Of a stretch of 64,000 bases of DNA, positions 13,126-44,338 are shown one piece after another. The notes under the pieces were generated by a model, which worked only from the letters and a program-made list of their open reading frames with translations, did not search any database and had not been told where the DNA came from. The position numbers and the translations under genes are program-made. The DNA lies in the NCBI GenBank assembly GCA_964606385.1, contig CAZSFZ010000003.1, positions 29,493-93,492 of the forward strand, given 5' to 3'. Origin of the DNA: an uncultured bacterium (GTDB lineage Bacteria; Omnitrophota; Omnitrophia; Omnitrophales; Aquincolibacteriaceae). The stretch's first letter is position 1. The number at the start of each line of letters is the position of its first letter.

Positions 13126-14046
13126 GTGTTAGCATGCCTCATGCAAGAAAAACCTTCCCTCGGCTATTGGCTTCAGCACCTCATCGTCAAATATCTGGCC
13201 CTTCTCGCGACAGTGCTTCCCGTGGAAGTCTCACATCGCATTGCCTGCGGGTTTGGGACCCTATCCTACTGGATCCTGAAAAAACGCCGCAAGATCGCGG
13301 TTGAAAATATTACGCATGCTTTCGGAAATTCCATCTCTGACTCGAAGAAACAAGCGATCGCGCGTTCTGCTTTCCAAAGCGCCGCGCTTTCCATGATGGA
13401 ACTTTTCGTAGTCGAGAAGATCAAGAAAGAAGCCGCGGCGCGTTTCAAGCTGATCGGCAATGAGTTCCTGGAGGAAGCCTTTTCGAAAGATCAAGGTGTC
13501 GTGCTCGTGATCTCGCATCTGGGTTCCTGGGAATATCTTTCTTTTCTTCCCTACTTCACCAAACAGCCGTGGTCGGTCGTGGTCAAAGACATTAAAAATC
13601 CTTACCTCGATAAGGCCATTGATGCCATGCGCCGCGTCATGACGGTCAATCCGATCGCAAAGGACAGCTCAGTCCGGACGATCCTCCAGGAACTCAAAGC
13701 CGGACGCGGCGTCGCGATCCTGGTCGATCAGTGGGCCGGCAAGGACGGCCTCTGGGTTGATTTTTTCGGCACCAAGACTTCCACGACCTCGATCCCCGCC
13801 CGGCTTTCCGAAAAGACCGGTTGCGCGCTCGTTTCCGCCTGCTGCCTCCGGACGACCCCCGGGCATTATGAGATCCATATCGAAAAACCGATCGTTCATG
13901 ATCTGAATGAACCGGGCTGGGAGAAGACGGTCACTCAAGAGCTGAATGAGGTCCTCGAGCGCCAGATCAAGGCTCATCCTGAACAGTGGCTTTGGGGCCA
14001 CCGCCGATGGAAAGAAAAACCCCATAACCTCCGGGAAACTTCCTGA
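13126..14046 (+). CDS. Lipid A biosynthesis lauroyl/myristoyl acyltransferase-like protein (LpxL/HtrB family, LPLAT superfamily), copy 1.
   Basis: An N-terminal TM helix, then ISHLGSWEY (the H-x4-E/D acyltransferase motif) and a C-terminal ...HPEQWLWGHRRWK that is typical of the LpxL family. The start is ambiguous: GTG at 13126 or ATG at 13141. Confidence 0.7.
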   Translation: MLACLMQEKPSLGYWLQHLIVKYLALLATVLPVEVSHRIACGFGTLSYWILKKRRKIAVENITHAFGNSISDSKKQAIARSAFQSAALSMMELFVVEKIKKEAAARFKLIGNEFLEEAFSKDQGVVLVISHLGSWEYLSFLPYFTKQPWSVVVKDIKNPYLDKAIDAMRRVMTVNPIAKDSSVRTILQELKAGRGVAILVDQWAGKDGLWVDFFGTKTSTTSIPARLSEKTGCALVSACCLRTTPGHYEIHIEKPIVHDLNEPGWEKTVTQELNEVLERQIKAHPEQWLWGHRRWKEKPHNLRETS

Positions 14047-15212
14047 TGGATTTTGAACTCAAGATCGAAAAACTGGTGTTCGGGGGCGACGGCCTGGGCT
14101 TTGTCGACGGGAAGGCCTGTTTCGTGGAAGGAGCGCTCCCCGGCGAAAAAGTTCTGGCGCGCATCCTGAACGAAAAACCCAATTTCGTCAAAGCGAAACT
14201 CCTCCGTGTCCTTGAGCCCTCTTCCTCTCGGATCTATCCTCCGTGTCCTTATGTCGAACGCTGCGGCGGCTGCCAATACCAGCATCTTCCTTACAGCGAA
14301 GAACTGAAATGGAAAGAACTCCAGGTCCGGGAAAGTTTCGCGCAGGCGTTTAAGGGCGAAGAGATCTCCATCCTCCCGATCCGGGCGGGAACCAAGGAGT
14401 ACGGTTACCGGAACAGCATCACGATCCACCGCACAACGGAAAAGAACAACAAGCCCCAGCGGCTCGGATTCATCGGTCATGATAATTATTCGAAGGTCCT
14501 GATCGACTATTGCATGCTGGCCGATGAACGGCTGAGGGAGATCTTCACGGCCGAGCATCAGCTGAGCCGCAGTGAAGAAAAAAGAGGTTTTAAGCTTGAT
14601 GAAAAAGGCCGCATTTTCACAAGCGACGAGGAAAGGCTCTACCGCGTGCGCGTGGGCGGAAAATCCCTCTGGACCAGCTCTTTCGGATTCTTTCAGAATA
14701 ATATCGAGGTTACGGAACTCATCGCGAAGAAATTGACGGGGTCTCTTGAAGCCCTGAAACCCGCGCGGTTCCTGGACCTTTATGCCGGCGTCGGCACCTT
14801 TCCGCTGCTCGCGACTCAAAATGTCCCGGAGATCCATTGTTTCGAAGATAATCCTTACAGCACCGGATGCCTCCGCAGGAATGTGCAGGAATTCAATTTT
14901 CCGCTCGCGGGGATCTTTTCCGGGAAAGTCGAAAAAACCTTCCCTCGTTTCATCATGAAAAGCCCCAAACCCGGAACGCTCGTCTTCATGGACCCACCCC
15001 GGCAAGGGATCGCGTCATCCCTCGCGGATTTTCTTGGGAAAAACGATGTGGGTGAGCATATCTTTTATCTGGCCTGCGACCTGCAGATCCTTTTGCGGGA
15101 CCTTCGCCAGATCCTCGCCGCCGGCCGCTACCAGGTCCGGGAAGTCACTCCCTTCGACATGTTCCCCCGCACCAAACACATCGAAGTCCTCGCCTGGCTG
15201 ACTAAGATCTAA
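14046..15212 (+). CDS. rlmD: 23S rRNA (uracil-5)-methyltransferase of the RlmD/RumA family (TRAM domain, 4Fe-4S cluster, SAM-dependent MTase).
   Basis: An N-terminal TRAM-like segment. The Cys cluster is CPYVERCGGCQYQH. The C-terminal MTase motifs are LDLYAGVGTF and DPPRQG. The start overlaps the upstream stop (ATGA). Confidence 0.75.
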   Translation: MDFELKIEKLVFGGDGLGFVDGKACFVEGALPGEKVLARILNEKPNFVKAKLLRVLEPSSSRIYPPCPYVERCGGCQYQHLPYSEELKWKELQVRESFAQAFKGEEISILPIRAGTKEYGYRNSITIHRTTEKNNKPQRLGFIGHDNYSKVLIDYCMLADERLREIFTAEHQLSRSEEKRGFKLDEKGRIFTSDEERLYRVRVGGKSLWTSSFGFFQNNIEVTELIAKKLTGSLEALKPARFLDLYAGVGTFPLLATQNVPEIHCFEDNPYSTGCLRRNVQEFNFPLAGIFSGKVEKTFPRFIMKSPKPGTLVFMDPPRQGIASSLADFLGKNDVGEHIFYLACDLQILLRDLRQILAAGRYQVREVTPFDMFPRTKHIEVLAWLTKI

Positions 15213-31251: not shown

Positions 31252-32199
31252 TCAAATCCCCGGAGGCGGTGTCCGCCATCGCCGGTGGGCCCAAAGCCAG
31301 TCGCCGGGACGCTTCCGGATCTCTTCTTCGATCTTCGCGACATACTGCTGGGTGTTCGCTAAAAGATCCGCTTGAAGATTTCCGGTCCGGATCAAGGGGA
31401 ATTCCGGGCCATAGTGAACCGTCGAGCGCCCTTTTTCATTACGATAAAAAAAGGCGGGGAAAACCGGCGTTCCGTATTTCAGCGCCAGCATCGCGGGTAG
31501 CGTGCTCGTAGAAGCCTTCCTCCCGAAAAAATCCACCCACACCGCCCCGCGGCTCTCATGCTGGTCGATCAAGACCGCCACGATCTCTTTCCTTTTGAGA
31601 CACGCGATGGAATCTTTGACCGCTCCGGATTTCTCGATATTTTTGAGATTGGCCGCCTCACGCAGCCGGCGGAGGTGGGCGTAAACATAAGGATTTTTAA
31701 GCGGCCGGCCCACGGCGTTCGTGAAAAGTCCGAACGGCTTGATCGGGATCGAAAGCCACTCCCAGTTCCCGAAATGCGAGACGATCGCGATCGCCCCTTT
31801 TTCCTTTTTCATCCACTGCAAGAATGCTTCCATCTCGGGCTTTTCGATATAACGCTCGGGGGAAGCGCCCGCGGGGACATTCCGGACCAGCTCGAATGCC
31901 AATTTAATGATGCTGGCCATCGAAGCCTCCGCGATCTTGAGAAGCTCCGCGTCGGGCTTCTCCTTCCCGAAAGCCAGCCGCAGGTTTTCCATCATGACCC
32001 TGCGCCGGACACCGAGATACCGAACAGCTAGCATCCCCAGGCTGTCCGCGATTCTGTAGCTGATACGGAGAGGGATGAGGCGGAATAAGAACGAAAGGAA
32101 CCGGAAGGCGGCATATTCGAAAAAGAATAAAATTTTTTTGAATGGGGACATTATTCTATTTTTCGAGAGCGTTCTGAAATGTTTTAGACGTGTGCGCAT
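31252..32199 (-). CDS. LpxL/HtrB family lipid A biosynthesis acyltransferase-like protein, copy 2.
   Basis: VSHFGNWEW (H-x4-E motif) and the C-terminal PGDWLWAHRRWR. It is a paralog of the gene at 13126-14046. Confidence 0.7.
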   Translation of the reverse strand: MRTRLKHFRTLSKNRIMSPFKKILFFFEYAAFRFLSFLFRLIPLRISYRIADSLGMLAVRYLGVRRRVMMENLRLAFGKEKPDAELLKIAEASMASIIKLAFELVRNVPAGASPERYIEKPEMEAFLQWMKKEKGAIAIVSHFGNWEWLSIPIKPFGLFTNAVGRPLKNPYVYAHLRRLREAANLKNIEKSGAVKDSIACLKRKEIVAVLIDQHESRGAVWVDFFGRKASTSTLPAMLALKYGTPVFPAFFYRNEKGRSTVHYGPEFPLIRTGNLQADLLANTQQYVAKIEEEIRKRPGDWLWAHRRWRTPPPGI

Positions 32200-32338
32200 G
32201 GCGGGAATCGGCGCCTTTCGCTCATTTCATTCGCTACAGGTCGGCACTGACTCTCATTCAAAAATTCCAAAGGTAGTTAGTGCCGTCCCAACTACCCGTC
32301 AAATATTTATGGAGAGCTGGGACAGCCACCCACCCCTC

Positions 32339-32360
32339 AAATATGACGCACGTCATATTT
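32339..32360. promoter_or_regulatory. Palindrome AAATATGACG-ca-CGTCATATTT about 85-105 nt downstream of tRNA-Gly (10-bp arms).
   Basis: A perfect inverted repeat. It shares the TATGAC/GTCATA arms with a palindrome downstream of tRNA-Ser. The function is unknown. Confidence 0.4.
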
Positions 32361-32444
32361 GACTTCGGGGCTCCCTTCGATTCCCGAATTACAACCAATG
32401 AACCACGTCGGGTTCCGAAAAGCTATGAACCCTATGCGGTTCAT

Positions 32445-32515
32445 AGCGGGCAGCGGGAATCGAACCCGCATAGTCAGCTTGGAAGGCTGAGACTTTACCA
32501 TTAAGCTATGCCCGC
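32445..32515 (-). tRNA. tRNA-Gly (anticodon TCC).
   Basis: The sequence on the minus strand is GCGGGCATAGCTTAATGGTAAAGTCTCAGCCTTCCAAGCTGACTATGCGGGTTCGATTCCCGCTGCCCGCT. It folds into a cloverleaf with acceptor GCGGGCA/TGCCCGC, anticodon loop CTTCCAA, T-arm GCGGG-TTCGATT-CCCGC and discriminator T. No CCA is encoded. Immediately 3' is the hairpin ATGAACC-gcatag-GGTTCAT followed by AGCTTTT. Confidence 0.85.
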
Positions 32516-35801: not shown

Positions 35802-36425
35802 CTAATCCGTAAAGTGCAAGGTTTCCAAAGTGTGTTCAAAAAAGGGAAGGAACGTCTTGTACTGCTCGCGGGTCCCCACAAAACTAATTTGATAGTAGAA
35901 ATTTTTCCGGATCAGGAAAAGCTCCCTATTTAAGATCACCGCCCGTTGTTTTTCAGGAGCATATAGGGGAAGCAGGGAAACATACTGGTACTCGATGTAA
36001 GGGACTGTCCCGGCGCTGATCTGCTGATTGCCCTTTTTTATGAGCTCGAATTCCAAGAATCTTTTCTTTCCACTTAAAACGTTTTCCGCTATTTGGGCCC
36101 CGGTTTGGTTGAAAGGTGCCGATTTTTTTACAATAAAGATCGATACGGAAAACTTTGTCTTTGTGTCCTGAGGCCCTAACACGCTCACCATGTCAAATTT
36201 TCCGGAAAATTGACTGGTCGACATCTTCCATGTGGTGGGATATTCGAAACTAAAATCAAAAGGAGGATTTTTTTCATGAAAAGCTTTCCAGGAAGAGGGC
36301 GTGAAAGGAATCGATGTCTTTTGCGGAGACACTGTCGGCCGGTAAAGCGATAGCCACAGAACCAGAACGGCCCCCAATAAAATCATTCCTATTAGCAAAA
36401 ATGTTTTTTTGTTTTTAAAAGACAT
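35802..36425 (-). CDS. Hypothetical membrane-anchored protein (single N-terminal TM; possibly a PsbP/DUF1795-like fold).
   Basis: MSFKNKKTFLLIGMILLGAVLVLWL is the anchor. It contains ...FSFEYPTTWKMS. It lies in a lower-GC stretch. No confident family assignment. Confidence 0.35.
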   Translation of the reverse strand: MSFKNKKTFLLIGMILLGAVLVLWLSLYRPTVSPQKTSIPFTPSSWKAFHEKNPPFDFSFEYPTTWKMSTSQFSGKFDMVSVLGPQDTKTKFSVSIFIVKKSAPFNQTGAQIAENVLSGKKRFLEFELIKKGNQQISAGTVPYIEYQYVSLLPLYAPEKQRAVILNRELFLIRKNFYYQISFVGTREQYKTFLPFFEHTLETLHFTD

Positions 36426-36436
36426 AGAAGCCCCGC

Positions 36437-37987
36437 TTAGTAATCAAAAAGTTTTCCGTAATCTCCACGGCTTTTCAAATATTTTATCATTTCGTCATCA
36501 AACGGCTGAACGCCTTGCAGGGCCCCTTGATCATCCAGGATCAAAAACTGGTCCAGGTCGCTATCAAAAGAATCGTAGTCTTGTTGAAGCTTCTCGTCCA
36601 GCGATGACCGGCTCACGCTACTCCTCAGATCATACCAAGCCTGGGCATCCGCCACAAAAGCGCTATATTCCTGAAAAAGAGAATTGCTGGACCGCGGGCC
36701 CGTCCAACCTTCCGGCGCGACCCACCCGGCAGGCGGCAACCCGTACGCGGGAAGCGGGGCGTTCGGATCCGCTTGAATTCTCTCTTGATAATCAAGCAGG
36801 TCTTTGTCCCAAATATTATGAAGTATTTCGTGAGCCAAAAGCGATGAGGTCATTCCTTCGGGAGCTTCGGAGAATCTCTCATCGACGACGATCACACTCT
36901 GCACAACGTCATTGTTCTCCGAAATGGCATGCGTGTAGTAAGCATAAGCGCCATTGTTGCCGGGAGTTCCTCCATATAAAATTTTTGTGGTCTCCCCATC
37001 AAGAAATGTAATCTCATCCTCGCCGCTGGTAATGGCCTGACCGGGAAACTGAAACGCATAAGCGTCGATCGCATCCAGGGCATTCTTGCTCGAGGTAACC
37101 ATCTTGTCAAAGTCCGCATTATTCCCGGCCTTGCCGCAGACCTCGGAAGAGTATTCTGACTGATATTGGACTCCCTGGTGCTCAACTATCGTTTTTGCCC
37201 GGAAACAATAGGTGCGTCCATTCCTTCCTTGCTCCAGATCCCCTGCAAAATCGGAGCAAATCGTTTCCGAAGTTCCTCCTATATATTCCCAGTCGGAAGT
37301 AACCCCTTTATACTCTTCCCTCATTTGCATGATATACCCCAAAGCATCCGCATAGGGTGTAAAACTGAAATCTAACCATCCTCCCGTGTTGGAAAAAACC
37401 TCTAGATCCTGAGGCGCAAGCACCGTGTAATAAGTGCCGCCCCCTATCGTGTATGAGAATGAGCCCCCGGAACCTCCGCCCGAACCTCCGCCTCCAGAGC
37501 CGCCGCCGGACCCGCCGCCTTCAGAGCCGCTGCCGGAACCTCCTCCGGAACCGGCTCCTCCAGAACCCGAACCATAATTTCCGCTTGATCCTGAATTAAA
37601 ATTCACAAAACCATCTTTATTGATACCGATAGTATCAAGCCATTCGCTTAAAGGGCCGACAGGCGTTGCCAGCGCCAAAAAATCTACCTCATCCGCGTTG
37701 ATAATGCTGTAATCGTAAAAACCTCCTCCCACGATAAGCCCCAAGACAGATTCGATCCCCGACTCGTCCTCGGCGCCAACGAACTTCCCAAGCAATTCAT
37801 ACATACGCAACTCAGCGAGGCGTATGGAACCGAGGTTATTAACCGCCTCCGCCTTCTTGGATTGTTCGATCTGGTGGACCACCCGGGTGATCGCAATGGT
37901 CGCAAGAACCGCGATAATGACGATCGAAATCAACATTTCAAGAAGGGTCACCCCTTGCTGCTTTTTACGCGTAAAAATGGTTTTCAA
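36437..37987 (-). CDS. Type IV pilin-like (prepilin N-terminal methylation site) protein fused through a Gly/Ser-rich linker to a large C-terminal domain carrying an HExxH zinc-metallopeptidase-like motif.
   Basis: The N-terminus MKTIFTRKKQQG|VTLLEMLISIVIIAVLATIAI is a class III signal peptide, with Gly at -1 and Glu at +5. A short pilin-like region follows, then GSGSGGAGSGGGSGSGSEGGGSGGGSGGGGSGGGSGG, then a ~330-aa domain with LLAHEILHNIWD. No pilus assembly genes are in the window. Confidence 0.6.
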   Translation of the reverse strand: MKTIFTRKKQQGVTLLEMLISIVIIAVLATIAITRVVHQIEQSKKAEAVNNLGSIRLAELRMYELLGKFVGAEDESGIESVLGLIVGGGFYDYSIINADEVDFLALATPVGPLSEWLDTIGINKDGFVNFNSGSSGNYGSGSGGAGSGGGSGSGSEGGGSGGGSGGGGSGGGSGGSFSYTIGGGTYYTVLAPQDLEVFSNTGGWLDFSFTPYADALGYIMQMREEYKGVTSDWEYIGGTSETICSDFAGDLEQGRNGRTYCFRAKTIVEHQGVQYQSEYSSEVCGKAGNNADFDKMVTSSKNALDAIDAYAFQFPGQAITSGEDEITFLDGETTKILYGGTPGNNGAYAYYTHAISENNDVVQSVIVVDERFSEAPEGMTSSLLAHEILHNIWDKDLLDYQERIQADPNAPLPAYGLPPAGWVAPEGWTGPRSSNSLFQEYSAFVADAQAWYDLRSSVSRSSLDEKLQQDYDSFDSDLDQFLILDDQGALQGVQPFDDEMIKYLKSRGDYGKLFDY

Positions 37988-39273
37988 CGGATTTCTTCCC
38001 CTCGGATGGCTTCTTCAAGAATCTTTTTATTCTGGGCAGCTTCACGCAAGCCAGGGTCGATCTCAAGCGCCCGATTCCACTCTTTAAGAGCTTTATCCGC
38101 ATCATTTAAAAAAGCATGCGCAAGCCCCTTGTTCGCGTGCCCCTTAGCATAAAACTCGTTAGATGCCAACACCCTCCCAAAAACATCAAGGGCCTTACGG
38201 GGCTCATTCATTTTGATATAAAGGAGACCTAAATTATTTCCGGCAACCCAATCACGCGGATCTTTCTCAAGAATCTCCTCATAAATCACGGATGCTTTGG
38301 CGAGTTCTCCTTGCCCGGCAAGAAGTTGCGCCCGGACATGTTTTACATTTTTATTGCCCGGGTCACTTCCGGAGATCCGGCCAAGATATTCTTCAGCCTC
38401 TCTGAAATTATTCTCTTTTAAAAGGACTTTTGCCATCCCGATCTGGGCATCGGCATTTTGGGGCTCTTTTTTTAGCACCATCCCGTAGTAGCGTTTGGAC
38501 TCATCATAGTCCCCCGTCAATCGGTAAAGTTCAGCCAAATTTAAGAAAGGCTTTGAAAAAACCACGGGGCCGGACGTCAAGGGAAGAAGAATTTTCTTCG
38601 CTTCCTCAAAACGTCTAAGCTGGATAAGCGCAGCGGCCTGATTATTTAGAAAAGGAGTTTCGTTGGCCCGCTTAAGGGAGCGGTAAAGATCGTATGCTTT
38701 TTGATATTGCCCCAAGGCGTAATAACCGTTCGCCACACCCGATATCGCCACTTCATCGTCGGGTCTCAACTTCAGATACTCCTGGAAAACCTCCACGGCC
38801 CGCGGAAAATTCTTGACGGTAAGGTACAGATTGGCCAGATTCAGAAGGATTTCAGGCTTTTGGGATTCCCCTTCCAAGGCTTTCAAAAAACTTTCCTCCG
38901 CCTTTTGAGCCTCGCCGGCAGAAGCATACGCGCTTCCCAGATTCGCGTAAATCACCGTATTGATAGAGTCAGAACCCAGAGATTGCTCGAAGCTTTCCGC
39001 GGCTTCCTTAAAACGGCCGCTCTTATACATCTCGACGCCTTTTGCAAAATAAACCGCTTTCCCGCGGACCTCCACCAGTTCTTCCTTGGAACCGCGCCAG
39101 ACCATTTTTATATCAGATTTTGGAATCTTAACTTTTCCTCCGGGCGCCTCAACAATCACAAATTGGTCGTCTTCCCTTAAGACCTTGGCTTCAATCGCAT
39201 TACCATTTTTGAGTTGAATGATATCCGCAAGGGCTAAGGGAGAAATCGTGGCAAAGCAGAACAAAAAAAGCAT
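37984..39273 (-). CDS. TPR repeat protein with an N-terminal signal peptide.
   Basis: MLFLFCFATISPLALA, then many TPR units through the C-terminus. The track's longer ORF (to 39585) reads through the tRNA genes and is rejected. The start codon abuts a tRNA-like 3' end. Confidence 0.6.
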   Translation of the reverse strand: MLFLFCFATISPLALADIIQLKNGNAIEAKVLREDDQFVIVEAPGGKVKIPKSDIKMVWRGSKEELVEVRGKAVYFAKGVEMYKSGRFKEAAESFEQSLGSDSINTVIYANLGSAYASAGEAQKAEESFLKALEGESQKPEILLNLANLYLTVKNFPRAVEVFQEYLKLRPDDEVAISGVANGYYALGQYQKAYDLYRSLKRANETPFLNNQAAALIQLRRFEEAKKILLPLTSGPVVFSKPFLNLAELYRLTGDYDESKRYYGMVLKKEPQNADAQIGMAKVLLKENNFREAEEYLGRISGSDPGNKNVKHVRAQLLAGQGELAKASVIYEEILEKDPRDWVAGNNLGLLYIKMNEPRKALDVFGRVLASNEFYAKGHANKGLAHAFLNDADKALKEWNRALEIDPGLREAAQNKKILEEAIRGEEIR

Positions 39274-39443
39274 GGCGGAGAGGGGGAGATGCGGCTCCCT
39301 TCGCTTCGTTGCGGGTAGGCCACCCGCCCCGCTCTTATGACATGAGTCATAAGCGCCTGCGGGGCTCCCTTCGAATCTCCCGTCCAAAGAACGGGAGCCC
39401 GAACCGTCATGATCTCCCGTTTTTTTTGATTGAATAGAAAACA
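39273..39443 (-). other. tRNA-Ser-derived structured element or pseudo-tRNA. It repeats the 18-nt 3' terminus of tRNA-Ser (tggcggagagggggagat, including CCA) at 39273-39290 and contains nested hairpins.
   Basis: There is an exact 18-bp direct repeat with 39444-39461. Between the copies the following hairpins occur: ACGGGAG-16nt-CTCCCGT, CTCCCGT-TCTTTGG-ACGGGAG (mutually exclusive with the first), GCGGGT-aggcc-ACCCGC, and CCCCGC..CTTATGAC-atga-GTCATAAG..GCGGGG. The region reads like a T-arm (GGGAG-ATTCGAA..TCTCCC) interrupted by about 80 nt. It has no standard cloverleaf. Confidence 0.3.
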
Positions 39444-39533
39444 TGGCGGAGAGGGGGAGATTCGAACTCCCGATACGCTTGCGCGTATAACAGTTTTCGA
39501 GACTGCCGCATTCGGCCACTCTGCCACCTCTCC
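39444..39533 (-). tRNA. tRNA-Ser (anticodon CGA), class II with a long variable arm. CCA is encoded.
   Basis: The sequence on the minus strand is GGAGAGGTGGCAGAGTGGCCGAATGCGGCAGTCTCGAAAACTGTTATACGCGCAAGCGTATCGGGAGTTCGAATCTCCCCCTCTCCGCCA. The acceptor is GGAGAGG/CCTCTCC, the anticodon loop is CTCGAAA, the variable-arm hairpin is ATACGC-GCAA-GCGTAT, and the T-arm is GGGAG-TTCGAAT-CTCCC. Confidence 0.9.
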
Positions 39534-39726: not shown

Positions 39727-40902
39727 ATGCACGCATGCCTGGGCCTATTCATTTTCCTGCTCCCCTTATCACTCGCCTCCTCCAGCGCCGTGGAACCCGA
39801 GATTTTTTTAAGCACCGTCTATTTTGCCCTATTGCTGGTCTTCCTGGCCGTCTGGATCATCGTCAAGGGACTTTCCTTTAAAAAACTGGGAACGATCCAA
39901 TATCCGGTAATCATCTTGTCGCTCTTTCTGGTCATGGCGGTCCCGTTCACGCTCAACCGGGCAAACGGCCTTTGGGAGATCACCCAGTTCACAGTCAGCC
40001 TGATCCTGTTCCTCGTGATAGCGCCTCTCGAGGAGGATAAAAAAAAGCGCCTCGCCGCGGAGATCGTGCTGGGAGCACTGGCCATAAGCCTTCTCGCGAT
40101 CTTTCAATATTTCTTCGGTTTCCAGCTCCTATCGGATTATGTCCAAAGGACAAATATCACCGATCCCTTCGTCTTAGAAAAGATCGCGCAGCGAAGGGTC
40201 TTTTTCCCGTTCCCGACCCCGGGGATCCTGGGGGGATACCTTGCCATGGCCCTCCCCCTCGCGCTTTGTTCCGGCAAACGGGCTTTTTTTGCAATTCCCA
40301 TCGGCCTGGCGCTGCTCCTCACTCAATCGCTCAGCGCCCTGCTGAGCCTTATGGTGATCCTCGCCGCATTTTCCGTATGGAAGAACCGTTCTTCAAAAAA
40401 GAAGGTTTTTCTCCTGCTCGGGCTCGGCATGGTCCTAGGAGGCCTGTTCGCCCTGAGAACAAGCAATGTTCATCAGCATCTGCTACCCTCATTCTCAATG
40501 ACCGCACGGCTTGATTACTGGAAAGAAACATTGCGGGTTATTTCCGCGCATCCCTGGCTGGGTACCGGATTCGGGAATTTCGACCTGCAGTCATCACGAT
40601 ACGCCCATAATTCCTTCCTTCAATTATGGGCTGAGACAGGTGTGATCGGCATGACGGTTTTTATCTGGTTGTGGACTGCCATCCTCAGGAACGGTTGGAA
40701 AAGCATCCCGTCCTTTTACAAGGATCAACAGAAATGGGCCTTGCTCGCCGGGATTTGTATTTTTTTGGTCCACAACCTGATGGATTTTACCCTTTTCCTT
40801 CCGGCCGTAAGTTTTATCTGGTGGGTCATGCTGGGGATGTTCGCCGTCCCCGTTTCACAGGAAGCAAAGGAAGGGCTTGCGAGCGCTTCGAAACGAATTT
40901 AG
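39727..40902 (+). CDS. O-antigen ligase family protein (WaaL/Wzy_C domain).
   Basis: About 10 TM segments plus a periplasmic loop with RYAHNSFLQLWAETGVIG, the O-antigen ligase motif. Confidence 0.7.
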   Translation: MHACLGLFIFLLPLSLASSSAVEPEIFLSTVYFALLLVFLAVWIIVKGLSFKKLGTIQYPVIILSLFLVMAVPFTLNRANGLWEITQFTVSLILFLVIAPLEEDKKKRLAAEIVLGALAISLLAIFQYFFGFQLLSDYVQRTNITDPFVLEKIAQRRVFFPFPTPGILGGYLAMALPLALCSGKRAFFAIPIGLALLLTQSLSALLSLMVILAAFSVWKNRSSKKKVFLLLGLGMVLGGLFALRTSNVHQHLLPSFSMTARLDYWKETLRVISAHPWLGTGFGNFDLQSSRYAHNSFLQLWAETGVIGMTVFIWLWTAILRNGWKSIPSFYKDQQKWALLAGICIFLVHNLMDFTLFLPAVSFIWWVMLGMFAVPVSQEAKEGLASASKRI

Positions 40903-40906
40903 GCCG

Positions 40907-42214
40907 CTACAAAGATTCCGCCGCTCTTTTCCCGTCCCAGATCGCATCCTCCATGGACATATAAGTCCATGAGCCATAACGGCCGCAGGGAATGATCCCG
41001 TGCCCGCTCAGGAATTTCAGGATCTTTTGAGTGGCTTCTTGATACTGCCGGTCGTAGATCGGATATCCATACCGGATATCATTCACATCTTTCGCGCAGA
41101 TCCTGTCTTGCGGCCCGAGCAATCCTTTCTTTCTGAGATCCCGGAGGATGCGGGTCCCGATCTTCTTCTTGGAAACCGCCTTGTAGCGCGAGTAAGAAAC
41201 TTCGGCATAAAAAGATCTTTGGCGTAATGGAGCAACACCGGAAGAATAATGATGCGGAAATCCCACCCGGAAGAAACACGTTTCGGGCTGCGGGAAATAG
41301 ATCCAATGCCGTTTGGGGTCCCGGCCGTTGGCGCTCACGCCCAGGTTCAGATTATAAATGGAATTCCAGCGCAGCTTCGCCAAGGCTTTTTGAATTGCCG
41401 CGGGCAGCTTCCGGATCAGGCGGGACATCTCGGGTAAAGGGATCGTCGAGATCAGGGTGTCATATTTTTCTTTTTTCCCGGAAACCAGCGTCACCTCTTT
41501 TTTATCAAGATCGATCCGCGTGATCCCGCTTTTAAGCCGGATATCCTTAAGCCGCCGGGCAAAAGCCTTCGGAAGTTTTTCGATGCCGCCCGCGCGGGGA
41601 TACCAAAAATAAACGTTATAACCCAGCTGGTTCTTGCTCTCGTTCTTCGCGCCTTCGAGCACGCGCCTGAGGGACGGGACCGGAACCATCCCGGAAAGCC
41701 AATCGCAGCTCAGCTCTTTCGGCGGCACTGTCCAGAACTTCGCGTTATACGGCTCCATGAAATGACGGGCTATTCCGGCCCCGAAAGTCCGCCGGGCCCA
41801 TTGAGAAAAATTCATATTTTTGCCGGGCGAGTCTTTACGTTTTGTTTTTTTTGCGCGAAGGAATCCGTCCAGGCATTCCTTGAGGATCTTGGGAGGAAGA
41901 CCGAAGAGGTTGGCCTGAAAAGGATAGGGCGTGTAACGCTCCCCCATGGACACCCAGGCGCTCCTCGGCTGTTTCACGCACTGCTTGCCGAGCAATTTCC
42001 GGACGAGCCCGGCAACGTAGGGTTTCTTGAAATGGAGCAGATGTCCGCTGTAGTCAAAAGTAAAACCGCGGACATGTTTGGAGCGGCAAAGCCCGCCGAC
42101 CTCCGATTCTTTTTCAAAAATGCGGCTTGGGATCCCTCTCTCGCGCAAATGCCACGCCGCGCTCAATCCGGCGATACCGGCCCCCAGGATCAGGATCTTT
42201 TTTCGAGCTTTCAA
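40907..42214 (-). CDS. FAD-dependent oxidoreductase (amine oxidase / protoporphyrinogen oxidase-like Rossmann protein) within a glycan cluster.
   Basis: KKILILGAGIAGLSAAWHL is the GxGxxG dinucleotide fold. The proposed start is TTG at 42214 with a GGTGAAGG RBS, overlapping the upstream stop. The track's ATG at 42343 would overlap the upstream gene by 130 bp. Confidence 0.55.
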   Translation of the reverse strand: MKARKKILILGAGIAGLSAAWHLRERGIPSRIFEKESEVGGLCRSKHVRGFTFDYSGHLLHFKKPYVAGLVRKLLGKQCVKQPRSAWVSMGERYTPYPFQANLFGLPPKILKECLDGFLRAKKTKRKDSPGKNMNFSQWARRTFGAGIARHFMEPYNAKFWTVPPKELSCDWLSGMVPVPSLRRVLEGAKNESKNQLGYNVYFWYPRAGGIEKLPKAFARRLKDIRLKSGITRIDLDKKEVTLVSGKKEKYDTLISTIPLPEMSRLIRKLPAAIQKALAKLRWNSIYNLNLGVSANGRDPKRHWIYFPQPETCFFRVGFPHHYSSGVAPLRQRSFYAEVSYSRYKAVSKKKIGTRILRDLRKKGLLGPQDRICAKDVNDIRYGYPIYDRQYQEATQKILKFLSGHGIIPCGRYGSWTYMSMEDAIWDGKRAAESL

Positions 42215-43191
42215 ACCTTCACCCGGCTCATTTTTTTGATCAGGACAAGGCTTCCCAACCCCGCCAGGATTAGGATCAGGATCCCGAAAAGGTTCGAAGC
42301 TTGGCTGAGCATGGCGCCTGCGGCGACAAAAAAGAGGGTCCATCCCATCATCGCCGCGAGAGTTCTCTTTTTCGAATAACCTTTTTTCAGGAATCTCAAG
42401 GCGATATGGTCCTCACTTTTATTGAAAGCGGAGGTCCCCTTGCGGACGCGCATCAGGATCAGAAAAAGCGTGTCCAGGATGGGGAAACCGAGCAAAAGCA
42501 GCGGGGTCAGAAGCGCGACATTCCTCTCCAGGGTCGCGTAACGCGCGGTGATCGCGAGCGCCGCGAGCACCAGTCCCAAAAAATGGCTCCCATTGTTCCC
42601 CATGTACACCTTGGCCGGCGGAAGATTAAAGATCCAGAACCCAAGGACCGCGCCTCCCAGGATGGCGGAAACGATGAAGGTCAGACTGTCGCCGTTCACG
42701 GCGGAGATCACGCAGAAGCCCGAGAGGATCACGAGGGCCGTCCCTCCCGCCAATCCGTCCATCACATCCAGAAGATTCATGGCGTTGGTAATCGCGATGA
42801 TCCAGAAAAGAGATATAGCGATATTCAAAAGATTTCCCGCGTACGCGAAATCGGTCCGGACCCCGAAACCGACCAGGATCGCCGCAGCAACAAGCTGGAC
42901 GAAAAATTTTTGGGCCACGGACAGCTCCCGATGATCATCCAAGATACCCGTGACAAGCATGAAGGCCGAAGCGATCACGATCCCTTTAATCTCCCGCGGA
43001 AGTCCGGCCAGAGAGGTTCCGGTCAGCAACAGGACTATCCCGAAGGCCAGCCCCATGCTGACCCCGCCGATCGAAGGAACGCCCTTGGTGGTTAAAAACT
43101 TCCAGCGGGCGGAAGCTTCTTTAAAAAAAAGCACAAAAAGCGCGGACAGAAGAAATCCGCTCAAAGCGCCCCAAAAAGAACTAGCGATCAC
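42211..43191 (-). CDS. Polyprenyl-phosphate N-acetylhexosamine-1-phosphate transferase (WecA/MraY/TagO family, GT4-type initiating enzyme).
   Basis: A multi-TM protein with NAMNLLDVMDGLAGG, the family NxxNxxDGIDGL motif, and DDxxD-like ILDDHRE. Confidence 0.85.
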   Translation of the reverse strand: MIASSFWGALSGFLLSALFVLFFKEASARWKFLTTKGVPSIGGVSMGLAFGIVLLLTGTSLAGLPREIKGIVIASAFMLVTGILDDHRELSVAQKFFVQLVAAAILVGFGVRTDFAYAGNLLNIAISLFWIIAITNAMNLLDVMDGLAGGTALVILSGFCVISAVNGDSLTFIVSAILGGAVLGFWIFNLPPAKVYMGNNGSHFLGLVLAALAITARYATLERNVALLTPLLLLGFPILDTLFLILMRVRKGTSAFNKSEDHIALRFLKKGYSKKRTLAAMMGWTLFFVAAGAMLSQASNLFGILILILAGLGSLVLIKKMSRVKV

Positions 43192-44338
43192 AGGCTGTGC
43201 CTTTCGTTCCGGTCAATTGCCGGTAAAGTTCCTCGTGAGATTTCACCATCATCTTTGTCTCAAACCTTTCATCCACGCACTCTGCTGCTTTTAGCGCGAT
43301 GCGTTTCTTCGGGCCATCCTCCCGGAGAAGCAAAGTGAGCTTTTTTAACATAGAAGGCACATCATGGCAAGGCGCAAGAAATCCCGTTTCCCCTTCCAAG
43401 ATCACTTCCGCGATCCCTCCCGTATCGGTCGCCAGAACCGGAACACCGCTGGCCATAGCCTCAAGGACCGCGATCGGCAATCCTTCCCAAAGGGAGATCA
43501 ACACGAGGACGTCCATCGCAAAGAGGACCCGGGCCACATCTGTCCGCCAACCCGTCAGAATAAACCGGGAGCGCAAGCCGGATCTTTCGATCTGACGTTC
43601 AAGCTTCTTCCGAAGGACACCGTCCCCCACCATTAAAAACCGGGCTTGGGGAAAAAGCTGCCCGGCTAAAGAAGCCAGCCGCACGAAATCCTCAAGGCCT
43701 TTTTGCGGTTTGAAGCAGGCGATGGTCCCTATCACCAGCGCGTCTTCACTGAGGCCGAGTTCCTTGCGGATCGAGGCGTCCTTCGCGCCAAATTCAGCCC
43801 TGGAGATGCCGTACCGTATCAAGCCGTATCGATCTTCGGAACCTATTTTGAGGCCGAGCCCTTTTTGCTTGTCATGATCGGAAACCACTACGATCCTGTC
43901 CGTGAATTTCGCGCTGAATTTTTCGAGCTTTTTGTAAAGTCCGCAAATCAAGGGGTTCTGGAAATCGTGGAAGGACCAGCCGTGGACAGTGTGAAGAATG
44001 ATCTTGGTTTTGGCCAACGCCGCGGCCCAACGGCCTAAAATACCCGCTTTCGAGCTGTGGGTATGGACCATATCGATCCGGTTCTTCCGGATGAAAGCCC
44101 TGAGCTCCATCAAGGCTAGAAGATCCCGTAGCGGGTTGATCAGCCTTTGCAAATACCGGGACCGGTACAGGCTCAAACCGGGAATGGCCAAGGCTTCTTC
44201 CATGAGGAACCCGTCCTTGGCGGTAAAAAGAAAAATGTTGTAGCGGTCTTGATCGAGATTTTTGATCAGGCTCAGAAGCTGTTTCTGCGCGCCGCCGAGC
44301 TCCAACTGAGTAATCACATAAAGGATATTGATCTTCAT
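43181..44338 (-). CDS. Glycosyltransferase family 4 (group 1).
   Basis: The N-terminus MKINILYVITQLELGGAQKQ. The C-terminal GT4 region carries the E-x7-E-like motif (LEAMASGVPVLATDTGGIAEV). Confidence 0.85.
   Translation of the reverse strand: MKINILYVITQLELGGAQKQLLSLIKNLDQDRYNIFLFTAKDGFLMEEALAIPGLSLYRSRYLQRLINPLRDLLALMELRAFIRKNRIDMVHTHSSKAGILGRWAAALAKTKIILHTVHGWSFHDFQNPLICGLYKKLEKFSAKFTDRIVVVSDHDKQKGLGLKIGSEDRYGLIRYGISRAEFGAKDASIRKELGLSEDALVIGTIACFKPQKGLEDFVRLASLAGQLFPQARFLMVGDGVLRKKLERQIERSGLRSRFILTGWRTDVARVLFAMDVLVLISLWEGLPIAVLEAMASGVPVLATDTGGIAEVILEGETGFLAPCHDVPSMLKKLTLLLREDGPKKRIALKAAECVDERFETKMMVKSHEELYRQLTGTKGTACDR

What the first reader, a model, noticed from the sequence alone, without database searches (positions are those of the whole stretch)
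39273..39443. tRNA-Ser-derived structured element with an 18-nt direct repeat of the tRNA 3' terminus (including CCA)
The sequence tggcggagagggggagat at 39273-39290 is identical to the 3' end of tRNA-Ser at 39444-39461. That span covers the acceptor 3' strand, discriminator, CCA and part of the T-stem. The 153 nt in between read, on the tRNA strand, like a T-arm (GGGAG-ATTCGAA ... TCTCCC-CCTCTCC-G-CCA) interrupted by an ~80-nt insert. The insert is made of stable hairpins: GCGGGT/ACCCGC, and CCCCGC..CTTATGAC-atga-GTCATAAG..GCGGGG. The 5' part contains three heptamers, ACGGGAG / CTCCCGT / ACGGGAG, that can form two mutually exclusive hairpins, which is a switch-like arrangement. The AUG of the downstream TPR gene starts with the A of this pseudo-CCA. 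Possible explanations: an att-site remnant of a tRNA-targeting integrative element, a pseudo-tRNA, or a tRNA-like regulatory leader for the islet genes.
Basis: seen in the sequence. Interest (0 to 1): 0.6.

Follow-up and report, generated by a model that had tools for sequence, protein, structure and literature searches.

The report
Small structured cassette at tRNA 3' ends
The repeat of the tRNA-Ser 3' end is real and marks one copy of an apparently undescribed family of 120-270-nt non-coding, structured cassettes that sit behind many different tRNA genes in uncultured bacteria, each bounded by a copy of its own host tRNA from the T-loop to the 3' end.

Summary
Observation confirmed. The repeat is exact over 20 nt (39271-39290 = 39442-39461). 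The hairpins and heptamers are present.

It is not a pseudo-tRNA and not the scar of a large island. It is one member of a multi-copy family. The window holds a second copy behind tRNA-Gly (32187-32397). A core pattern found 39 metagenome loci, and a covariance model found more, behind at least 17 tRNA species.

Each copy has the same anatomy:
- an intact tRNA and a variable trailer;
- a left arm that is the reverse complement of that tRNA's T-loop and T-stem 3' strand;
- a conserved G-rich core (GAAGGGAGC, P1, GCGGGTGGCCGACC, P3, GGAGGGCGCC) with covarying hairpins;
- a direct copy of the tRNA from position 56/57 to the 3' end.

Both arms follow T-loop variants of the host tRNA. No protein gene is shared across loci, and nothing matches in Rfam, plasmids or phages.

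Best reading: a non-autonomous cassette inserted Campbell-style at the T-loop, carrying its own replacement tRNA 3' end. The enzyme is unknown.

Side observation: at this locus the TPR reading frame stays open from a GTG inside tRNA-Ser through the cassette.

The parts
39444..39533 (-). tRNA-Ser(CGA), intact. Its last 20 nt plus 2 flanking nt (39442-39461) form the proximal repeat copy D1.
   Evidence: ARAGORN; Rfam tRNA 56.3 bits; repeat
39385..39443 (-). Trailer module S, specific to this cassette. It holds the hairpin AACGGGAG (39390-39397) / CTCCCGTT (39414-21). On the plus strand the hairpin is followed by T8 (39420-39427). It shares CTCCCGT with an alternative hairpin formed with the left arm.
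   Evidence: Sequence; fold. Entirely different in the 90%-identity relative L081.
39370..39384 (-). Left arm. On the minus strand it reads ACGGGAGATTCGAA, the reverse complement of tRNA positions 54 to about 65 (T-loop plus T-stem 3' strand). It is the 5' strand of closing helix P0.
   Evidence: 12-nt perfect inverted repeat with 39455-39466. Host-matched in the family.
39291..39369 (-). Conserved core: GGGAGC, P1 hairpin (39327-39364), P2 GCGGGTGGCCTACCCGC (39311-39327), then AACGAAGCGAAGGGAGCCGC (39291-39310).
   Evidence: CM R1 hit 39270-39391, 99.3 bits, E=4e-25; alignment A1; covariation.
39271..39290 (-). Distal repeat copy D2 (tRNA T-loop end, T-stem 3' strand, acceptor 3' strand, G, CCA, then TG). 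Its first bases form the 3' strand of P0. Its CCATG supplies a candidate ATG for the TPR gene.
37984..39273 (-). TPR protein gene with a signal peptide (MLFLFCFATISPLALA|DIIQLK). Its reading frame is open upstream through D2, the core, S and the tRNA.
32187..32397 (-). Second family member in the window, behind tRNA-Gly(UCC). Left arm CGGGAATCGAA and right arm CGATTCCCGC match the Gly T-loop variant TTCGATT. There is an 84-nt insertion in the P2 loop.
   Evidence: CM R1 69.9 bits, E=4e-17; sequence
32445..32515 (-). tRNA-Gly(UCC), host of the second copy.

Best explanation
The 171-nt unit (39271-39441: trailer S, inverted T-loop arm, structured core and one repeat copy) is a complete member of a family of small non-coding cassettes that reside at the 3' end of tRNA genes.

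Shown:
- The family is multi-copy and occurs behind many different tRNAs.
- Each copy is bounded by a direct repeat of its own host tRNA from T-loop position 56/57 to at least the discriminator base.
- Each copy carries an inverted copy of the host T-loop and T-stem 3' strand that pairs with the distal repeat (helix P0).
- The core has invariant G-rich junction strands and covarying hairpins.
- Close relatives carry different cassettes at the same tRNA, and tandem arrays occur.

Inferred: the cassette enters by a Campbell-type exchange inside the T-loop, between G57 and A58, as tRNA-targeting integrative elements do. The proximal repeat, which completes the working tRNA, would then be cassette-borne together with its own trailer. 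The distal repeat would be the displaced original 3' end.

Also inferred: the reaction is done in trans by a recombinase encoded elsewhere. That enzyme would recognise the conserved core and/or the P0 stem, which in single-stranded form mimics the double-stranded T-loop/T-stem target. P0 would also keep the displaced tRNA fragment from mispairing with the upstream tRNA in the common precursor transcript.

The enzyme, the physical form of the mobile intermediate, and the way a cassette acquires a new host's 3' end are not known.
For: - **Family and hosts.** The core pattern found 39 metagenome loci. In every locus where the contig holds the upstream sequence, the core lies about 16-110 nt behind a tRNA-type 3' end. 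The hosts ARAGORN called there are Ser(CGA, GGA, GCU, UGA), Gln, Lys, Tyr, Trp, Val(CAC, UAC), Glu, Asn and Gly(CCC). The right end is always ...GGCGCCG|AATCC followed by that tRNA's own 3' sequence.
- **Copies found without the pattern.** CM R1 found further copies independent of the pattern, including window 32187-32397.
- **Arms follow T-loop variants.** For TTCGATT (Gly) the arms are CGGGAATCGAA / CGATTCCCGC. For TTCAAGT (Leu) they are GAGGGACTTGAA / CAAGTCCCTC. TTCAAAT (Thr) behaves the same way.
- **Left arm is host-matched.** The reverse complement of the left arm matches the host tRNA over 9-14 nt. It extends beyond the generic 9 nt in 22 of the 25 copies with a canonical T-loop.
- **Covariation.** 95.3% of cells are paired against 82.4% in shuffles (0/500). 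9 of 15 pairs have changes on both sides, and slid controls give 32-57%. The tRNA-sense strand folds better in 31 of 31 cores.
- **Cassette swap.** The window and L081 (TPR 90% identical) have identical tRNAs but completely different S and P1 between the repeats. L081's tRNA-Gly carries a different insert built on the same logic.
- **Tandem copies.** Seen in L102, L101, L109 and L123.
- **Trailers differ between the two repeat copies.** The proximal and distal copies carry different trailers, with or without an encoded CCA. Cassette-free relatives (L088, L087, L001) have the CCA-type trailer that in L110 follows the distal copy.
- **No shared protein.** No protein family is shared in the flanks across hosts. 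Units are 118-273 nt.
- **Integrases use this tRNA.** Genuine integrase-bearing elements use the same tRNA-Ser in the clade.
- **Published precedent.** Integration splits a tRNA gene and the element restores it, so a displaced fragment marks the end of the element (PMC4383910). A T-loop attB can be retargeted by changing the attP core (PMC1762012).
Against: - No recombinase, excised circle or empty/filled polymorphism was observed.
- None of the 20 window ORFs tested is a recombinase, transposase or reverse transcriptase.
- A cassette that enters a new tRNA by T-loop crossover would create a chimeric tRNA unless it already carries the matching 3' end. Yet near-identical cores sit behind different tRNAs in the same samples (Ser-GGA and Gly-CCC in L094/L127 and L108/L114). 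Host switching is therefore frequent and unexplained.
- The strongest conservation is in unpaired core strands, with variable covarying hairpins. That pattern is more typical of a functional RNA than of a recombination site.
- Terminators follow the distal copy in only 9 of 28 loci.
- All loci were retrieved with a pattern derived from this family, so its breadth and typical context are biased.
Confidence: 0.5

Rival explanations
1. It is primarily a functional non-coding RNA co-transcribed with the tRNA, for example the scaffold of an RNP. Its single-stranded 3' tail is identical to the tRNA's acceptor 3' strand, which would be guide-like for the tRNA gene's template strand. The T-loop TTCG would act as the adjacent motif, replaced by GCCG in the element's own copy. 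Its 5' arm is antisense to the tRNA T-arm. The RNA's partner protein would be encoded elsewhere, and spreading between tRNA loci would be a consequence of that activity.
For: - Invariant unpaired G-rich strands combined with variable, covarying P1 and P3 and an 84-nt insertion tolerated in the P2 loop.
- The sense strand folds better in 31 of 31 cores.
- There is no terminator between tRNA and element in 25 of 28 loci, and many copies lie inside tRNA operons.
- The layout, a scaffold followed by 16 or more nt identical to the tRNA gene, resembles TnpB/Cas12-type guides (own knowledge).
Against: - No nuclease or transposase gene lies next to any copy.
- No Rfam family, including omega-RNA-type families, matches.
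- The first 5-12 nt of the would-be guide are paired in P0.
- Distal copies decay without loss of the core (L081 has 4 of 18 positions changed; the window Gly copy is slip-deleted).
- No expression data are available.
Confidence: 0.22
2. It is a transposon- or retroelement-type insertion, for example target-primed. One strand is nicked precisely in the T-loop and joined to the element's right end through CGAATCC microhomology. The second nick falls at a variable distance downstream. The repeat would then be a long, variable target-site duplication, and the left junction would be imprecise.
For: - The right junction is precise and the left boundary is variable.
- Repeat length ranges from about 15 nt to about 100 nt.
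- Near-identical cores with different host repeats occur in the same samples.
- The repeat includes the gene's trailer and not a post-transcriptional CCA, so the template is DNA or pre-tRNA.
Against: - It does not explain why the trailers of the two repeat copies differ in type.
- It does not explain the host-specific inverted left arm.
- No reverse transcriptase or transposase was found near any copy.
Confidence: 0.15
3. It is the scar of a once large integrase-bearing island, with attL and attR left after internal deletion.
For: It has an att-like direct repeat. Integrase-bearing elements use this tRNA in relatives.
Against: All 40-plus copies are small and share one conserved core behind many different tRNAs. 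Two copies lie in one 64-kb window.
Confidence: 0.04
4. It is a decayed second tRNA-Ser (pseudo-tRNA) from a local tandem duplication.
For: Tandem tRNA-Ser genes precede dnaX in other phyla (L050). The T-arm-like ends also fit this reading.
Against: - There is no tRNA signal.
- The left arm is the inverted T-loop, not a T-arm 5' half.
- The same core lies behind unrelated tRNAs.
Confidence: 0.01

Closest known systems
tRNA-targeting integrative elements (genomic islands, prophages, ICEs with tyrosine integrases; T-loop class of attB)
   Same: There is a direct repeat of the tRNA gene from the T-loop to the 3' end. The intact tRNA is regenerated next to the insert, a displaced 3' fragment marks the far end, and tandem accretion occurs at the same tRNA (PMC4383910, PMC1762012).
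   Different: The unit is only 118-273 nt with no integrase or any other gene. One conserved structured core lies behind at least 17 tRNA species. It has an inverted host-matched T-loop arm, which att sites do not have.
Non-autonomous att-flanked elements (CIMEs) and MITEs
   Same: Non-coding, multi-copy and presumably mobilised in trans, with short inverted ends.
   Different: CIMEs are kilobase-sized derivatives of a known ICE (own knowledge). MITEs have element-borne TIRs and a short target duplication of fixed length. Here the inverted arms are host-derived and the duplication is 15-100 nt.
Integron cassettes (attC) and CTX-phage/IMEX attP hairpins
   Same: Small cassettes that can lack an ORF and form arrays. 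The site is formed by two inverted arms that, when folded in a single strand, imitate the double-stranded target (own knowledge).
   Different: No intI/attI platform or dif site is present, and the target is a tRNA T-loop. The region between the arms is the conserved part, whereas in attC it is the variable part.
TnpB/IscB omega-RNAs and tRNA-homing guides of type V-K CRISPR-associated transposons
   Same: A structured scaffold is followed at its 3' end by 16 or more nt identical to a tRNA gene's 3' end, and it is located just downstream of that tRNA (own knowledge).
   Different: There is no adjacent effector or transposon and no Rfam match. Part of the 'guide' is base-paired.

Membership tests
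tRNA-targeting integrative element (Islander-type definition) | The insert is bounded by the regenerated tRNA and a displaced direct-repeat fragment of its 3' part | tested here: met
   A 20-nt exact repeat in the window. The same holds for every family member with both ends on the contig.
tRNA-targeting integrative element (Islander-type definition) | An integrase gene inside the element | tested here: not met
   Units are 118-273 nt with no ORF. No protein family is shared in +/-5 kb flanks across hosts.
tRNA-targeting integrative element (Islander-type definition) | Excision and integration through a circular form | not testable with these tools
   This needs raw reads or experiments.
MITE | Element-borne terminal inverted repeats | tested here: inconclusive
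   The arms GGATTCG/CGAATCC exist but follow the host T-loop variant.
MITE | A short target-site duplication of fixed length | tested here: not met
   Repeats range from about 15 nt to about 100 nt.
Integron cassette / attC | An adjacent intI-attI platform | tested here: not met
   There is no shared flanking protein. The sites are tRNA genes.
Integron cassette / attC | An imperfect hairpin site with conserved ends and a variable middle | tested here: not met
   The middle (core) is the most conserved part.
TnpB/IscB omega-RNA or CRISPR guide | Encoded next to its effector or at a transposon end | tested here: not met
TnpB/IscB omega-RNA or CRISPR guide | A scaffold followed by a guide that matches a target next to a fixed motif | tested here: inconclusive
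   The 3' tail equals the tRNA gene. The tRNA has TTCG and the element's own copy has GCCG at the adjacent position. No functional evidence exists.
tRNA / pseudo-tRNA | A cloverleaf recognisable by ARAGORN or the Rfam tRNA model | tested here: not met
Any Rfam 15 family | A match to a curated covariance model | tested here: not met
   Only tRNA and tRNA-overlapping models hit, even at E up to 10.

The most novel reading that the evidence does not exclude
The core is the RNA, or folded single-strand DNA, component of a new kind of tRNA-directed mobile system. One form would be an RNA-guided or self-templating element. It would read the host tRNA's T-loop through its antisense arm, copy the tRNA 3' end as its own terminus, and move without any cis-encoded protein. 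Another form would be an integron-like cassette system whose docking site is the universal T-loop. Either would be a class of mobile element not covered by current categories.
Probability: 0.2. Interest if true: 0.9.

Novelty: new variant of a known kind. Interest (0 to 1): 0.75.

Why it matters
If the family is what it appears to be, it shows three things.
- The universal T-loop of tRNA genes is used as a docking site by minimal, gene-less cassettes, not only by large islands.
- These cassettes switch between tRNA species while always carrying a matching replacement 3' end and a matching antisense arm. No known mechanism explains that behaviour.
- The family gives a defined, conserved roughly 100-nt structure to look for a partner protein, either a recombinase or an RNP.

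It also matters for annotation. Gene callers read through these cassettes and through the tRNA (486-, 483- and 506-aa TPR models). Island-finding tools that rely on tRNA fragments would flag these cassettes as island ends.

The side observation deserves its own test. A conserved secreted protein may be translated from a start codon inside a tRNA gene, with cassettes at that locus kept in frame.

Tried and rejected
- **Islet bounded by a third repeat.** I searched the window with up to 3 mismatches for a further repeat near dnaX and found none. The 'islet' genes are syntenic across Omnitrophota.
- **SRP RNA.** This RNA often lies between tRNA-Ser and dnaX in other phyla. There was no Rfam hit here.
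- **Phage attP.** The 20-mer and the core pattern are absent from viral contigs. The 14 viral hits to a 15-mer of the left junction do not contain the core.
- **Known ribozymes or riboswitches.** No Rfam hits. P1 loops that look hammerhead-like lack the essential G5 (and reading).
- **Insertion into a second T-arm copy, IS200/605-style.** Rejected because the left flank is the inverted right half. It has an extra A, and reads AATCGAA for the TTCGATT loop, so it is not the natural left half.
- **Priming by mature tRNA, retrovirus-like.** Rejected because many repeats lack CCA and continue into the gene's trailer.
- **Shared flanking gene.** Clustering ORFs within +/-5 kb gave only synteny groups.
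- **Partner enzyme in the window.** 20 ORFs scanned with Pfam were all housekeeping or had no Pfam match.
- **Literature.** Five full-text searches found no description of such an element. This is a limited search, not proof of novelty.
Full report
**1. The observation**

tRNA-Ser(CGA) lies on the minus strand at 39444-39533 (ARAGORN; Rfam 56.3 bits). The reported 18-mer is present twice. The exact repeat is 20 nt, CATGGCGGAGAGGGGGAGAT, at 39271-39290 and 39442-39461, and 25 of 27 positions agree over a slightly longer span. Allowing 3 mismatches gives only these two matches in the window, against 0.01 expected.

That feature turned out to be the key.

**2. Context**

The source organism is an Omnitrophota-like MAG. 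The best dnaX relatives are uncultured Omnitrophota, and TPR homologues are named Omnitrophota.

The order GGDEF, (polysaccharide genes), tRNA-Ser(CGA), TPR, pilin-like, about-200-aa gene, dnaX, recR is conserved in relatives whose TPR proteins are 46-90% identical to the window's. The lower-GC genes downstream are therefore not a recent islet. tRNA-Ser just upstream of dnaX is also common in other phyla.

**3. The element is conserved at this locus, and its repeat follows each genome's own tRNA**

L081/L082 (TPR 90% identical) and L083 (64%) have a homologous insert behind tRNA-Ser. It consists of GATTCGAAGGGAGC, a long hairpin, GCGGG(T/G)GGCC(G/T)ACCCG, a variable stretch, GGGCGCCGA(A)TC, and then a copy of the tRNA 3' end.

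In L083 the terminal copy is ATCCTATCCTCTCCG. That is L083's own tRNA sequence, which differs from the window's. In L081 the copy has decayed at 4 of 18 positions.

Relatives without the insert exist:
- L088 has the TPR start 10 nt after the CCA.
- L087 has a 180-aa gene between the tRNA and TPR.
- L001 has different cargo between tRNA-Ser and dnaX.

**4. It is a family behind many tRNAs**

The pattern GATTCGAAGGGAGC-N25-55-GCGGGKGGCCKACC found 39 metagenome loci and none in viral contigs. In every locus where the contig holds the upstream sequence, the core lies about 16-110 nt behind a tRNA-type 3' end. ARAGORN called the host tRNA in most of these loci: Ser(CGA, GGA, GCU, UGA), Gln, Lys, Tyr, Trp, Val(CAC, UAC), Glu, Asn and Gly(CCC). 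The element ends with ...GGCGCCG|AATCC followed by that tRNA's own T-stem 3' strand and acceptor 3' strand, sometimes with trailer sequence as well.

A covariance model (R1) built from 31 copies (A1) found copies the pattern could not have found. One is a second copy in this window at 32187-32397 behind tRNA-Gly(UCC), scoring 69.9 bits with E=4e-17. Others lie behind Leu(UAG), Leu(CAG), Thr(UGU), Gly(UCC) and Ser(GGA).

About a quarter of the other tRNAs on the same contigs also carry a copy. The unit length from repeat to repeat is 118-273 nt.

There is no Rfam match to the core even at E up to 10. There is no blastn match in plasmid or phage records. No protein family is shared in the flanks across hosts.

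**5. Anatomy**

Reading on the tRNA strand, each copy has:
- the tRNA, whose 3' part is proximal repeat D1;
- a trailer S, variable in length and type;
- a left arm that is the reverse complement of tRNA positions 54 to about 65;
- GGGAGC;
- P1, a long hairpin in at least three sequence types;
- GCGGGUGGCCGACC (P2);
- P3, an optional hairpin;
- GGAGGGCGCC;
- distal repeat D2, which is the tRNA from position 56/57 to at least position 73.

The left arm pairs with the start of D2 to form helix P0.

Both arms track the host's T-loop variant:

| Host tRNA | T-loop | Left arm | Right arm |
|---|---|---|---|
| Gly(UCC), window | TTCGATT | CGGGAATCGAA | CGATTCCCGC |
| Leu(UAG), L099 | TTCAAGT | GAGGGACTTGAA | CAAGTCCCTCCGGCCGCA |

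TTCAAAT (Thr) behaves the same way.

The reverse complement of the left arm matches the host tRNA over 9-14 nt. It exceeds the generic 9 nt in 22 of the 25 copies with a canonical T-loop. The left arm is therefore the inverted right half of the T-arm and not the natural left half. This excludes a simple insertion into a second T-arm.

On the model-based alignment of 43 copies, 95.3% of cells are paired against 82.4% in shuffles (0 of 500 shuffles reached the observed value). Nine of 15 pairs show changes on both sides, and slid controls give 32-57%. The caveat is that this alignment was fitted to the model. P0 and the base of P1 also come out of RNAalifold on the MAFFT alignment.

The tRNA-sense strand folds better than its complement in 31 of 31 cores, with means of -36.2 and -29.2 kcal/mol. 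G-rich composition contributes to that difference.

**6. Behaviour**

- The window and L081 have identical tRNAs and roughly 85-90% identical flanks. Everything between their repeats (S and P1) is different, so the cassette has been exchanged.
- L081's tRNA-Gly carries a different insert with the same logic: inverted arm GGACAGCGGGAA and distal copy GATTCCCGCTGCCCGCT.
- Near-identical cores sit behind Ser(GGA) and Gly(CCC) in the same two samples (L094/L127 and L108/L114).
- Tandem copies occur in L102, L101, L109 and L123.
- Trailers come in types, either CCA plus an A-type trailer or no CCA plus a B-type trailer. Either type can follow either repeat copy.
- Cassette-free relatives have the CCA type, and in L110 that type follows the distal copy while the working tRNA has the B-type trailer without CCA.
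- I read this as meaning that the proximal 3' end and its trailer came in with the cassette, and that the distal copy is the displaced original. This is the Campbell-type outcome known for tRNA-targeting integrative elements (PMC4383910; T-loop attB, PMC1762012).
- Integrase-bearing elements do use this same tRNA in the clade. L147-149 have HTH_17 and Phage_integrase genes directly upstream of tRNA-Ser, and L089 has 5'-half duplications of the tRNA.

**7. Mechanism: what is shown and what is inferred**

Shown:
- the family;
- the direct and inverted host-derived repeats;
- the covarying structure;
- the turnover between relatives;
- the absence of any gene in cis.

Inferred:
- entry by exchange at G57/A58;
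- a trans-acting recombinase that recognises the core and/or P0;
- P0 as a single-strand mimic of the double-stranded target, and as a clamp that keeps the displaced tRNA fragment from interfering with tRNA folding.

Co-transcription with the tRNA is plausible because only 3 of 28 loci have a terminator between the tRNA and the element.

Unexplained: how a cassette comes to carry the correct 3' end and antisense arm for a new tRNA.

The conservation pattern, with invariant unpaired strands and variable paired ones, is what a functional RNA would show. I therefore keep an RNA-centred rival at about 0.2 and a transposition or retro-type rival at about 0.15.

**8. Side observation at this locus**

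The TPR reading frame contains no stop codon from inside the tRNA, through S, the core and D2, in the window, L081, L103 and L128. The other two frames have 1-6 stops each.

L103, L128 and L081 have no in-frame ATG, GTG or TTG between the core and the start of the signal peptide's hydrophobic region.

The repeat-to-repeat period at Ser(CGA)-TPR loci is 171, 171, 180, 183, 183 and 273 nt, all multiples of 3. The family as a whole shows no such bias, with residue counts of 9, 9 and 13.

Gene callers start several TPR homologues at a GTG at tRNA position about 15 (MVECGGLENRYPRKG...; P0007, P0009, P0012, P0023, P0039). That GTG lies 7 nt after GGAGAGG, the acceptor 5' strand, which reads as a Shine-Dalgarno sequence.

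This suggests, but does not prove, that the TPR protein is translated from within the tRNA gene and that only in-frame, stop-free cassettes are tolerated here. In the window an ATG in D2 is an alternative start.

**9. Verdict**

The att-type reading is right in kind. The pseudo-tRNA, scar and islet readings are wrong.

The element belongs to a family I could not find in Rfam, in the annotated plasmid and phage collections, or in five literature searches.

I file it as a new variant of the tRNA-targeting integrative-element kind. The probability that it is something categorically new is about 0.2.

Noticed in passing
window 32187-32397 (-), behind tRNA-Gly 32445-32515: A second family member. 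Its arms are adapted to the Gly T-loop variant TTCGATT, and its distal copy appears slip-deleted (GATTCCCGC-CATG). Both tRNA genes in this 64-kb window carry a cassette.
   Followed up: yes
window 39273-39520 (-); L081, L103, L128, L088, L146, L147: The TPR reading frame is open from a GTG at tRNA-Ser position about 15, which lies 7 nt after GGAGAGG. It stays open through the tRNA and, where present, the cassette. Cassettes at this locus are multiples of 3 nt and stop-free in that frame. Several relatives have no canonical start codon downstream of the tRNA or cassette. Translation may therefore start inside a tRNA gene.
   Followed up: partly
L081 13012-13175: In the 90%-identity relative, tRNA-Gly is followed by a different insert with no GAAGGGAGC core but the same logic. 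It has an inverted arm GGACAGCGGGAA, two hairpins, and a 17-nt direct copy of the tRNA 3' end followed by CCA. There may be further cassette families.
   Followed up: partly
L089 2410-2608 (also L090, L091, L097, L112): Upstream of tRNA-Ser(CGA) there are one or two partial copies of the tRNA's 5' half, ending in the anticodon loop and separated by about 80 nt. In the same loci the core is truncated and abuts the C-terminal remnant of a 180-aa gene.
   Followed up: no
L147-L149 73-1474: HTH_17 (excisionase-like) and Phage_integrase genes lie immediately upstream of tRNA-Ser(CGA) in place of the usual GGDEF gene. An integrase-bearing element uses the 5' side of the same tRNA in this clade.
   Followed up: partly
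window 39390-39427: The hairpin AACGGGAG...CTCCCGTT is followed on the plus strand by T8. That makes it a good intrinsic terminator for transcription antisense to the tRNA and element, and only a weak one on the tRNA strand. The simple terminator scan missed it because of its 16-nt loop.
   Followed up: no
window 32236-32319: The P2 loop of the tRNA-Gly copy holds an 84-nt insertion with its own hairpins (GTCCCA/TGGGAC and GGTAGTT/AACTACC). It could be a nested small element.
   Followed up: no
L001 855-985; L092, L093, L120 downstream of the distal copy: 'Solo' GGATTCGAA(C/G) motifs, which are an inverted T-loop without a core, follow trailer modules. They could be footprints of lost cassettes or part of the duplicated unit.
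   Followed up: partly
window 35802-39273 versus L001 882-2734: L001 has 92% dnaX identity to the window. Between tRNA-Ser and dnaX it carries a different, AT-rich TPR gene plus the 180-aa gene. Upstream it lacks the four polysaccharide genes (window 39727-44338). Both sides of this tRNA are therefore variable between close relatives.
   Followed up: partly
window 14046-15212 (+): This ORF has TRAM and tRNA (uracil-5)-methyltransferase domains, the family of the enzyme that modifies U54 of the T-loop. This is probably a coincidence.
   Followed up: no
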